Below, one piece after another: positions 12,001 to 15,000 of a stretch of 64,000 bases of DNA. Made by a program: the position numbers. The stretch's first letter is position 1, and each line of letters starts with the position of its first letter. The DNA is from Escherichia coli O127:H6 str. E2348/69 (GTDB lineage: Bacteria; Pseudomonadota; Gammaproteobacteria; Enterobacterales; Enterobacteriaceae): NCBI RefSeq assembly GCF_000026545.1, contig NC_011601.1; one strand, 5' to 3'.

Positions 12001-15000
12001 TTGAACAAAATATCTCGGCACTGGCACTGGCCGCGCAGGTGATCCCTGGGCATATCATTCATATCACCTCTACGGTGCTGAATATCTTTGCCGTACTGAC
12101 TGCATTCTTTGGCATTTATCTCGGTTTCCACGAGGCCATTAAAGGCATTATTCTCAATCTGTTAAGCCGAATTATTGATACCAGGAAAATTAACTCACGC
12201 ATGCTGACTCTGGCGATCTGCGCTTTTATCGTCATTACGTTGACGATTTGGGTTTCGTTTCGTGTATCGGTGCTGGTGTTCTTTCAGTTGGGAAGCCCGT
12301 TATATGGCATTGTGTCGTGCCTCATTCCATTTTTCCTGATCTCTAAAGTTTCACAACTGAAAAAACTACGCGGGCTAAAAACATGGCTTATCCTGTTTTA
12401 TGGTATTTTGCTGTGCTTTTCGCCGCTATTGAAGCTGATTGAATAAAAGTAACGGGGGCTGCTCACAGCAGCCCCAGACGATGTCGATAGCATTGCAGCA
12501 CAGCCTGGATATGATCCTGAGTCATAAAGGACTGCTCATACGTTTCCATAACAATGGCATTTTCTTTACGTATATCCTGAAAGAGTTTTTCCAGCAATCT
12601 GGGCGCTAACCCCATTGATTCACCCAACAGCAAAAAGTCCTGCCCGATATACTCGCCATAATCACTGTGAAATCCAGGAGCCAGTTCCCGACCGCCTTCT
12701 TCTCGCGTCAATAACGGCAGCGCCAGATAGTTTGAGTAAAAATATTCCGGATAGGGAGCGACAGAAACAAAGTCATACACCGGCGCTAACGCAGGCGTCA
12801 AACCATCGGAGTACACTAAGCCAAAGTTTCGTAAATGCATGTCGTTATTACCCAGCAACCAGGCGTAAACAATGCGACGAAAGAGATCGATTTTAAATGC
12901 GATGTTGTCGTTAACATGGGCAACTAAAAATCGGGCCAGCGTTTCATAGCTGACATATTGTTCGTTATCATTCCCCGTTTTGCCATATTTATCTGTAATC
13001 TGCATCGCGCCATCAAGCTGTTCCTGATGCACTGGCAGCCCCTTGTTATCCCGGTCATAGCGCCGGATAACAAATGCGTATTCAAGCTCTTCCTCTGATT
13101 GTGGTGCAAAACTCAACAGGCCATGCACAGGTACGTCAAATCCCAAACGAGACATCAATGTCATTGTTGCGTGTTCATTTTCGGCCAAACCGGGAAAGTC
13201 GGCTGGAGAGGGCTTAAGGATAAAATTTCCCTGATGATCTACGACGCGGAACTCTCCTTCATCCAGCACTAATTGCAATTTGGGCTGGTAACCGGAAATA
13301 CTCATCCCTTTTTGTTGACGCGGAAGTTCCTGCACAAACTGAGTTCGCGTAAACCCCAGCCGAGGATTCAATTTTGCAGTGCCGCTCAGTCGCTTCAACC
13401 CCTGTGTCGAATATCCGCGCTGTTCGTCACGTTCATTCAACGGCGTTAACAGAATACGACAATTCGCCATTATTCCTCCCAAGGTAAAATCTGGATGGCC
13501 CCCAGCAGATTCTTGCCGTTATCAATAAGCATTCCCAGCAGATCGTTTTCGTCACGATGCTGTATCTGGCTGTAGCGTTGACGCAGCCATCCTTCTGGCG
13601 CCAGTGAGGCGAAATAAGGATGCAACGTCTCACTGGGAAACTGACGCTGTGCGACGGGCAGACTGATTGAGATTGCCGGTCCGTGGTAATCGTGGGCGTA
13701 CTGGAACAAAAAACCACTGTCGTTCTGAGAGAGTTCACCCACTACCTGACCATAGAGCAACACTTTCACTCGCCGATGCATAGTTTCACTCCAAGAACAT
13801 TCGCCACCGCGAACACACTGCCGAATTTAACCTGTTCAGGATCCTTAAAAAGTCGCTTTAACGTGGACGTTGAGATCCCCGTTTGTAGTTCAAGTGTGTA
13901 TAAATCAATGCCCAATTCTTTGCGACGTGCGTTCAGTTGTTCCCCCAAATGACGGGGAGTCTCAATGGTCAGGAGGGGGCGTGGTTGACTAATATTCGGC
14001 CCCTGAATAAGTTTCTTCTGCAACTCCTGGAGTTGGTCGCCGATCGCTTTCAACTCTTGAGCCAGATTTTGTGGTCCTGAGCAGATCATTAAAGAACCTT
14101 TCGATTGATAAAAGACAAAAACAAGATCATTTATGGTCAGATAAATTCGTTAAGTATCACAAATGAACCATTTTTCATTAATGGTTATAATTTAGCTCAT
14201 ATATAACTCATTGGCAAAGAAAAAGGTCAAAAAAGATACATAAATGATAGATAAAGCATAAAAAGGTCATATTTGACATGAGATCAGCATGAAAGCTGAT
14301 CTCATCGGGAGAGTTAAACAGCTGGCTTCTGCGGATTTTCATCCTGATCAACGGCAAAACAAGCTACCAGTTGACCGCCGTAGTCTTTTAGCTGCGGCTG
14401 CAACTGGGTGCAGGGGCCGAAGCGTCGACGACAGCGGGCGTTGAAGGCGCAGCCTGGCGGTGGATTCAGCGGGCTTGGCAGTTCACCGGTAAGTTTGATG
14501 CGTTCGCGACGATCGTCCGGGTTCAGGCGTGGTGTCGCGGAGAGCAGCGCCTGAGTGTACGGGTGGCGCGGGTTATTGAAGATTTGGTCCTTCGTCCCCT
14601 TCTCCACGCAGCGGCCCAGGTACATCACCATCACTTCATCAGCAATGTGCTCCACCACCGACAGATCGTGGGAGATAAAGACATAAGATAGCCCCAGTTC
14701 CTGCTGCAAATCCATCATCAGATTCAGCACCTGCGCACGCACTGAGACGTCCAGCGCGGAAACCGGCTCATCGGCAATCACCACATCCGGGTCGAGCATC
14801 AGACCTCGGGCAATGGCGATACGCTGACGCTGACCGCCGGAGAACATATGCGGATAGCGGTCATAATGCTCGGTTTTCAGGCCGACTTTCGCCATCATCG
14901 ACAGAGCTTTTTCCCGACGCTGTACTTTGCTTAAGCTGGTGTTGATCAGCAGCGGCTCTTCGAGAATCTGCCCAACTTTTTTACGCGGATTCAGCGAACC

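What the first reader, a model, noticed from the sequence alone, without database searches (positions are those of the whole stretch)
13294..13302. HipT Gly-rich loop carries two serines (Ser57 and Ser59) at the positions used for regulatory autophosphorylation
Counting from the MANCRIL start, the P-loop-like motif KGM-S57-I-S59-GYQPK places two serines where HipA-family kinases autophosphorylate (HipA Ser150 equivalent). Dual serines in this loop, together with Asp210 and Asp233, suggest an active, self-regulating kinase rather than a decayed remnant. The numbering also supports the chosen start codon, which has an SD-like GGGAGGA 5 nt upstream.
Basis: partly seen in the sequence, partly recalled or inferred. 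Interest (0 to 1): 0.6.

Follow-up and report, generated by a model that had tools for sequence, protein, structure and literature searches.

The report
Known HipT kinase phosphoserines (E2348/69)

Summary
Window 13302..13294 (minus strand) reads AGT ATT TCC, which is Ser57-Ile58-Ser59 of a 335-aa ORF (12463..13470, minus) that starts at MANCRIL. Pfam model coordinates and a 122-sequence alignment put Ser57 on HipA Ser150 and Ser59 on HipA Ala152 inside the Gly-rich loop. They also put Asp210 on HipA Asp309 and Asp233 on HipA Asp332. Among 120 homologue clusters (49-99% identity), Ser57 is kept in 120 and Ser59 in 119.

The window is 100% identical to the E. coli E2348/69 (O127:H6) chromosome. 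The protein matches PDB 7AB3, 7AB4 and 7AB5 chain C at every residue except the engineered S57A, S59A and D233Q changes.

LC-MS/MS found pSer57 and pSer59 (mBio 2019, PMC6581861). The S57A/D, S59A/D, D210A and D233Q variants and the crystal structures are in eLife 2023 (PMC10627512).

Two corrections apply:
- Only Ser57 is the HipA Ser150 equivalent, and phosphorylation does not simply switch HipT off as it does HipA. The S57D mimic stays toxic and escapes the antitoxin HipS.
- The GGGAGGA motif ends 3 nt before the ATG, not 5. The hipS TAA stop overlaps the hipT ATG.

Verdict: already known, low interest.

The parts
13294..13302 (-). Codons AGT ATT TCC = Ser57-Ile58-Ser59 of HipT, the two autophosphorylation sites
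   Evidence: Read directly from the sequence. S57 aligns with HipA S150 and S59 with HipA A152. pS57 and pS59 were found by LC-MS/MS on this protein (PMC6581861).
13279..13305 (-). HipT Gly-rich (P-loop-like) loop, residues M56-K64 (MSISGYQPK), aligned with HipA I149-K157 (ISVAGAQEK)
   Evidence: The Pfam HipA_C model starts at residue 56 of HipT and 149 of HipA. In 120 homologue clusters S57, G60, Q62, P63 and K64 are kept in all 120 and S59 in 119.
12463..13470 (-). hipT, a 335-aa HipA-family Ser/Thr kinase toxin (RefSeq WP_001262465.1)
   Evidence: ORF. Pfam HipA_C, E = 3.8e-38. Matches PDB 7AB3/7AB4/7AB5 chain C except for the engineered mutations. RefSeq annotation.
12841..12843 (-). Asp210 codon (GAC), the catalytic aspartate, equivalent to HipA Asp309
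   Evidence: 120/120 conserved. D210A is the kinase-inactive variant in PMC10627512.
12772..12774 (-). Asp233 codon (GAC), equivalent to HipA Asp332
   Evidence: 120/120 conserved. D233Q is the inactive variant crystallised as PDB 7AB5.
13474..13480 (-). Shine-Dalgarno-like GGGAGGA for hipT, lying inside the last codons of hipS, 3 nt before the ATG
   Evidence: Sequence.
13470..13781 (-). hipS, a 103-aa antitoxin homologous to HipA N-subdomain 1. Trp65 (TGG) is at 13589..13587. The stop TAA overlaps the hipT ATG by one base.
   Evidence: ORF. TIGR03071 couple_hipA, E = 1.4e-17. Full-length match to PDB 7AB3 chain B. The role of Trp65 is from PMC10627512.
13766..14089 (-). hipB, a 107-aa XRE-type helix-turn-helix repressor of the operon. 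It overlaps the hipS start by 16 nt.
   Evidence: ORF. Full-length match to PDB 7AB3 chain A. Repression of the hipBST promoter by HipB is shown in PMC10627512.
14189..14217 (-). Promoter-like site (TTGCCA, 17 nt, TAAATT) upstream of hipB. This is a consensus match only.
   Evidence: The number of such sites in the region equals the shuffle expectation, so this is weak evidence.
12455..12475 (-). Terminator-like G+C-rich hairpin that overlaps the hipT stop codon
   Evidence: 9-bp stem with 7 G-C pairs, followed by CGTTACTTTT.
12448..14328 (.). The 1.88-kb hipBST island between yhjV and dppF. In K-12 the same place holds about 34 nt.
   Evidence: blastn of the window against the K-12 yhjV-dppF region.

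Best explanation
Window 12463..14089 (minus strand) is the tricistronic hipB-hipS-hipT toxin-antitoxin operon of enteropathogenic E. coli O127:H6 strain E2348/69.

HipT is the kinase core of a split HipA. It phosphorylates tryptophanyl-tRNA synthetase (TrpS Ser197), which halts translation. HipS corresponds to HipA N-subdomain 1 and is the antitoxin: it holds the HipT Gly-rich loop in an outward position that cannot bind ATP by inserting Trp65 near the active site. HipB is the HTH repressor of the operon.

[quoted passage not shown] Their state feeds back on loop position and on HipS binding. Both serines are needed for toxicity. A phosphomimetic at 57 makes HipT resistant to HipS. Phospho-Ser59 contacts Lys161, His212 and the catalytic Asp210.

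Shown here: the sequence, the numbering, the alignment to HipA, the conservation, identity to the crystallised proteins, and the genomic context. Taken from the published experiments: phosphorylation, toxicity, the target and the HipS mechanism.
For: - The window is 100% identical to E2348/69 over the whole operon, and RefSeq annotates the three genes.
- HipT, HipS and HipB match PDB 7AB3/7AB4/7AB5 chains C, B and A over their full length. The HipT chains differ only at S57A, S59A or D233Q.
- HipT has a Pfam HipA_C domain and HipS a couple_hipA domain.
- The alignment gives S57=S150, S59=A152, D210=D309 and D233=D332.
- S57 is kept in 120/120 and S59 in 119/120 homologue clusters. The motif is intact in the most divergent E. 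coli copy and in an ST131 copy.
- Published experiments: LC-MS/MS phosphosites GMS(p)ISGYQPK and GMSIS(p)GYQPK (PMC6581861). Variant phenotypes, structures with pS59 and pS57, and HipB repression (PMC10627512).
Against: Nothing in the sequence speaks against it. Limits: no experiment was done here. The published phosphosite data come from in vitro reactions and from over-expressed complexes with optimised ribosome-binding sites, not from native expression in E2348/69. The authors state that what decides which serine is phosphorylated, and whether HipS must leave first, is unknown. The promoter and terminator calls in this report are consensus matches at chance frequency.
Confidence: 0.97

Rival explanations
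1. The two serines are conserved mainly because the Gly-rich loop needs them for ATP binding or catalysis, not because phosphorylation regulates the kinase. On this view autophosphorylation is a side reaction.
For: S57A and S59A abolish or nearly abolish toxicity although each variant still autophosphorylates on the remaining serine (PMC10627512). The whole loop is near-invariant, not only the serines. HipA has Ala at the Ser59 position.
Against: The phosphomimetics S57D and S59D remain toxic, so a negative charge there is compatible with activity. S57D specifically abolishes neutralisation by HipS. The SAXS data show that complex flexibility depends on the phosphorylation state. Other HipT groups replace the second serine with Thr, Pro or Gln, which argues against a strict catalytic need for Ser59.
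Confidence: 0.15
2. The true start is the in-frame TTG at 13482 (MGGIMANC...). The protein would then be 339 aa and the serines would be residues 61 and 63.
For: the ORF listing extends the ORF to a TTG four codons upstream.
Against: That TTG lies inside the hipS coding sequence, and the GGGAGGA motif would fall downstream of it. The ATG follows the SD and overlaps the hipS stop (TAATG), a typical coupling arrangement. 109 of 120 homologue clusters start at the ATG column or one column later, with a conserved M-x-x-C-R/H-I-L beginning. RefSeq and the PDB constructs use the ATG. The serines would be the same residues either way.
Confidence: 0.02
3. The locus is a decayed remnant of a HipA kinase split by a mutation, with no function.
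For: HipS plus HipT together resemble a HipA cut in two.
Against: All catalytic residues are intact. The three-gene arrangement recurs across Enterobacterales and Pasteurellaceae, with 306 homologue clusters at E <= 1e-10. All 160 E. coli genomes that carry it have a full-length copy at 98.8% identity or more. Between E. coli copies, synonymous codon changes are at least as numerous as non-synonymous ones (8 versus 3 and 4 versus 3, small numbers). Toxicity and kinase activity are published.
Confidence: 0.01

Closest known systems
HipT of the E. coli O127:H6 E2348/69 HipBST system (PDB 7AB3, 7AB4, 7AB5; Vang Nielsen et al. 2019, mBio; Baerentsen et al. 2023, eLife)
   Same: It is the same protein and the same locus. 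The DNA is 100% identical. The protein matches the crystallised chains apart from the engineered point mutations. The numbering is the same (S57, S59, D210, D233), as are the HipS and HipB partners.
   Different: Nothing differs.
HipA of E. coli K-12 (hipBA; autophosphorylation at Ser150)
   Same: Both have the HipA_C kinase fold family. The Gly-rich loop is ISVAGAQEK in HipA and MSISGYQPK in HipT, with S150=S57. The catalytic D309 corresponds to D210 and D332 to D233.
   Different: HipT lacks N-subdomain 1, which is encoded separately as HipS. HipA has Ala152 where HipT has the second serine, Ser59. The target is TrpS, not GltX. The antitoxin is HipS, not HipB. pSer150 inactivates HipA, whereas the HipT phosphomimetics stay toxic. 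Local pairwise identity is about 25%.
HipT of Legionella pneumophila (Lpg2370; PDB 7VKB, 7WCF, 8EZR)
   Same: It is also a split HipA kinase with a HipS partner. Sequence match E = 5e-26 over residues 14-258. It has a phosphorylatable serine at the Ser57 position.
   Different: It belongs to the S-psi-Q group, with Gln in place of Ser59, so it has a single phosphosite. Its target-binding loops differ, and it is found with the phosphorylated loop inward and nucleotide bound.

Membership tests
HipA-family Ser/Thr kinase toxins (Pfam HipA_C, PF07804) | HipA_C domain match | tested here: met
   PF07804, E = 3.8e-38, residues 56-300.
HipA-family Ser/Thr kinase toxins (Pfam HipA_C, PF07804) | Catalytic Asp (HipA D309) and the second active-site Asp (HipA D332) are present | tested here: met
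   D210 aligns with D309 and D233 with D332. Both are kept in 120/120 homologue clusters.
HipA-family Ser/Thr kinase toxins (Pfam HipA_C, PF07804) | Gly-rich loop with a serine at the HipA Ser150 position | tested here: met
   Pfam model position 1 falls on HipT M56 and HipA I149. MAFFT gives S57=S150.
HipBST tripartite toxin-antitoxin system | The kinase lacks HipA N-subdomain 1, which is encoded by a separate upstream gene (hipS, couple_hipA domain) | tested here: met
   HipT has no Couple_hipA domain, whereas HipA does. The upstream 103-aa ORF matches TIGR03071 at E = 1.4e-17 and PDB 7AB3 chain B.
HipBST tripartite toxin-antitoxin system | Gene order hipB (HTH) - hipS - hipT in one operon with overlapping reading frames | tested here: met
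   ORFs 13766..14089, 13470..13781 and 12463..13470 are all on the minus strand, with overlaps of 16 nt and 1 nt. The HipB ORF matches PDB 7AB3 chain A, an XRE-family regulator.
HipBST tripartite toxin-antitoxin system | HipS Trp65, the residue inserted near the kinase active site | tested here: met
   HipS residue 65 is Trp (TGG at 13589..13587), read from the translation. Its role is described in PMC10627512.
HipT kinases of the S-psi-S group | Ser, small aliphatic residue, Ser at positions 57-59 | tested here: met
   The motif is SIS in the window. Among 120 homologue clusters it is SIS in 117, SLS in 1, SMS in 1 and SIP in 1. The group is defined in PMC10627512.
HipT kinases of the S-psi-S group | Autophosphorylation at Ser57 and Ser59 | not testable with these tools
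   Published for the identical protein by LC-MS/MS, with localisation probabilities 0.99999 and 0.9992 (PMC6581861 Table 1), and as electron density in 7AB3 and 7AB4.
HipBST tripartite toxin-antitoxin system | The kinase phosphorylates TrpS (Ser197), and its toxicity is neutralised by HipS, not by HipB | not testable with these tools
   Published for this protein (PMC6581861; PMC10627512).

The most novel reading that the evidence does not exclude
The choice between Ser57 and Ser59 may act in vivo as a two-state code: pSer57 would give a HipS-resistant, active toxin and pSer59 a HipS-controllable one. At native expression in EPEC and ST131 strains this code would decide whether a cell enters or leaves a HipT-induced dormant state. 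This extends the published model. It is not excluded by anything here, and nothing here supports it either.
Probability: 0.2. Interest if true: 0.4.

Novelty: already known. Interest (0 to 1): 0.07.

Why it matters
It matters little as a discovery. The open questions are already stated by the authors. What selects Ser57 or Ser59 for phosphorylation? Must HipS dissociate first? What triggers HipT in its native host?

Tried and rejected
- Pairwise BLASTP of HipT against K-12 HipA did not align the Gly-rich loops. It began at HipT G60 against HipA G172, so it could not answer the Ser150 question. I used Pfam model coordinates and a 122-sequence MAFFT alignment in its place, and these two agree.
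- phmmer against the PDB also aligned E. coli HipA only over residues 177-239.
- NCBIfam has no specific HipT model. The only hit was the YjjJ equivalog at 23.9 bits against a cut-off of 401, so HipT is not a member.
- The alternative TTG start at 13482 was considered and rejected.
- The 'decayed remnant' reading was rejected.
- A search for HipB operator repeats in 14060..14330 gave only short, AT-rich repeats of doubtful significance. The clearest inverted repeat, 14278-14305, is the hairpin just downstream of dppF and not an operator. No operator is claimed.
- The promoter and terminator scans returned counts no greater than in shuffled sequence.
- Composition shows no strong foreign signature: GC is 0.484 for hipBST and 0.496 for the window.
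- The first script stopped part-way because a locus file was not yet available. It was rerun.

Full report
**1. What is at the coordinates**

The plus strand at 13294..13302 reads GGAAATACT. Its reverse complement is AGT ATT TCC, which encodes Ser-Ile-Ser.

These codons lie in a minus-strand ORF. The ORF listing extends that ORF to a TTG at 13482 (339 aa). From the ATG at 13470 it encodes 335 aa beginning MANCRILLTPL. Counting from that ATG, the serines are residues 57 and 59 within K54-G-M-S-I-S-G-Y-Q-P-K64. Residues 210 and 233 are both Asp.

**2. Start codon and ribosome-binding site**

The minus strand reads ...CCT TGG GAG GAA TAA for the end of the upstream gene, with the hipT ATG overlapping as TAATG. 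GGGAGGA occupies 13480..13474 and is followed by ATA and then ATG.

Four things support the ATG:
- RefSeq annotates the same start (WP_001262465.1).
- The crystallised constructs begin MANCRIL or ANCRIL.
- 109 of 120 homologue clusters begin in the same alignment column or one column later, with a conserved M-x-x-C-R/H-I-L beginning.
- The TTG alternative lies upstream of the SD and inside the coding sequence of the preceding gene.

**3. Is it the Gly-rich loop, and are these the HipA positions?**

Pairwise BLASTP against K-12 HipA did not align the loop. Two independent routes did.

The first is Pfam. The HipA_C model (PF07804) starts at model position 1 on HipT residue 56 and on HipA residue 149. 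That puts S57 on S150.

The second is a MAFFT alignment of the window protein, K-12 HipA and 120 homologue clusters:

| HipT | HipA |
|---|---|
| M56 | I149 |
| S57 | S150 |
| I58 | V151 |
| S59 | A152 |
| G60 | G153 |
| Y61 | A154 |
| Q62 | Q155 |
| P63 | E156 |
| K64 | K157 |
| D210 | D309 |
| H212 | H311 |
| N215 | N314 |
| D233 | D332 |

One refinement follows: only Ser57 is the Ser150 equivalent, and HipA has Ala at the Ser59 position.

**4. More than chance?**

A search of 5.8 billion protein clusters found 306 relatives at E <= 1e-10. The best 120 span 49-99% identity and come from Enterobacterales, Pasteurellaceae and others.

Ser57 is kept in 120/120 and Ser59 in 119/120. The motif is SIS in 117, SLS in 1, SMS in 1 and SIP in 1. 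Only 58 of 335 columns are that invariant, and other serines of the protein vary freely.

**5. Identity of the locus**

The 1627-bp stretch 12463..14089 is 100% identical to E. coli E2348/69 (O127:H6) in three assemblies. The whole window corresponds to NZ_CP059840.2 181054..245053, reverse complement.

The three minus-strand genes are:
- hipB, 13766..14089, 107 aa, XRE-type HTH.
- hipS, 13470..13781, 103 aa, couple_hipA domain.
- hipT, 12463..13470.

All three match chains A, B and C of PDB 7AB3, 7AB4 and 7AB5 over their full length. The HipT chains differ from the window protein only at S57A (7AB3), S59A (7AB4) or D233Q (7AB5). HipS carries Trp65.

**6. What is already published on this exact protein**

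Vang Nielsen et al. 2019 (PMC6581861) reported:
- HipT is toxic and is neutralised by HipS.
- It phosphorylates TrpS at Ser197.
- LC-MS/MS identified GMS(p)ISGYQPK and GMSIS(p)GYQPK, so HipT autophosphorylates on either S57 or S59.
- D233Q was used as the inactive variant.

Baerentsen et al. 2023 (PMC10627512) reported:
- Crystal structures of HipBST with D233Q, S57A (pSer59 visible) and S59A (pSer57 visible).
- S57A abolishes toxicity and S59A nearly abolishes it.
- S57D and S59D remain toxic, and S57D is no longer neutralised by HipS.
- pSer59 contacts Lys161, His212 and Asp210. pSer57 contacts Tyr162 and Asp210.
- D210A is kinase-dead.
- HipS Trp65 holds the loop outward.
- HipB alone represses the promoter.
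- The S-psi-S motif defines the largest HipT group among 48 orthologues.

These are all done, with D210A in place of D210Q for most assays.

A search for later work found no paper that changes this picture.

**7. How it works**

- Shown here: the anatomy, the alignment, the conservation and the identity to the crystallised complex.
- Taken from the cited experiments: HipT is a split HipA kinase that blocks translation by phosphorylating TrpS. HipS acts as an allosteric antitoxin by keeping the Gly-rich loop out of the ATP site. Autophosphorylation at Ser57 or Ser59 alters the network formed by the loop, Asp210 and HipS. This is a functional departure from HipA, where pSer150 simply ejects the loop and inactivates the enzyme.
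- Still unknown, according to the authors: what selects the site, and whether HipS must leave first.

**8. Genomic context**

Compared with K-12, the hipBST island (12448..14328, 1.88 kb) replaces about 34 nt between the convergent yhjV and dppF genes. It changes the DppF C-terminus from ...NPQR* to ...NPQKPAV*. GC content is 0.484 against 0.496 for the window, so there is no strong compositional signal.

The island is present once, on the chromosome, in 160 of 5426 complete E. coli genomes. Every copy is full length at 98.8% identity or more, and the carriers include ST131. The two diverged copies I examined keep KGMSISGYQPK.

**9. Verdict**

The novelty class is 'already known', and interest is low.

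Noticed in passing
window 12448..14328 and dppF 14314..15327: The hipBST island replaces the roughly 34-nt yhjV/dppF spacer of K-12, where the two convergent genes end. It changes the DppF C-terminus from ...DENPQR* (334 aa) to ...DENPQKPAV* (337 aa). New hairpins lie on each side, at 12455-12475 and 14278-14305.
   Followed up: partly
window about 9427..10813: There are two ldr/rdlD type I toxin-antitoxin copies (rdlD hits at 10265-10330 and 10748-10813), where K-12 has one. An IS200C transposase gene lies next to them, with an STnc490 sRNA hit at 9895-10018.
   Followed up: no
hipBST in other genomes (loci L006, L007): hipBST is carried by only 160 of 5426 complete E. coli genomes. It is always single-copy and chromosomal. 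Every carrier whose flanks I examined (E2348/69, L006, L007) has it between yhjV and dppF. Carriers include O25b:H4-ST131 urinary isolates. ST131 HipT differs from the E2348/69 protein at N35T, T159M and Y245H, and HipS differs at H30P and T52M.
   Followed up: partly
window 37771..38198: A full-length cspA thermoregulator hit (501 bits) covers a gene that RefSeq labels cspE (window about 37931..38143). By position, between hokA/sok and yiaG, this is the cspA locus, so the RefSeq gene name looks like an annotation slip.
   Followed up: no
window about 32125..34276 and 30296..30998: bisC and yhjY are annotated as frameshifted pseudogenes in this strain.
   Followed up: no
window about 23031..28518: The long polar fimbriae operon lpfABCDE lies between yhjX and eptB. 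I did not check K-12 here, so whether lpf is absent there and this is a strain-specific island remains unconfirmed.
   Followed up: no
window about 60620..61540: A DUF4862-family gene lies between yiaL and yiaM inside the yiaK-yiaO operon. From memory, K-12 has yiaL and yiaM adjacent. This was not checked.
   Followed up: no
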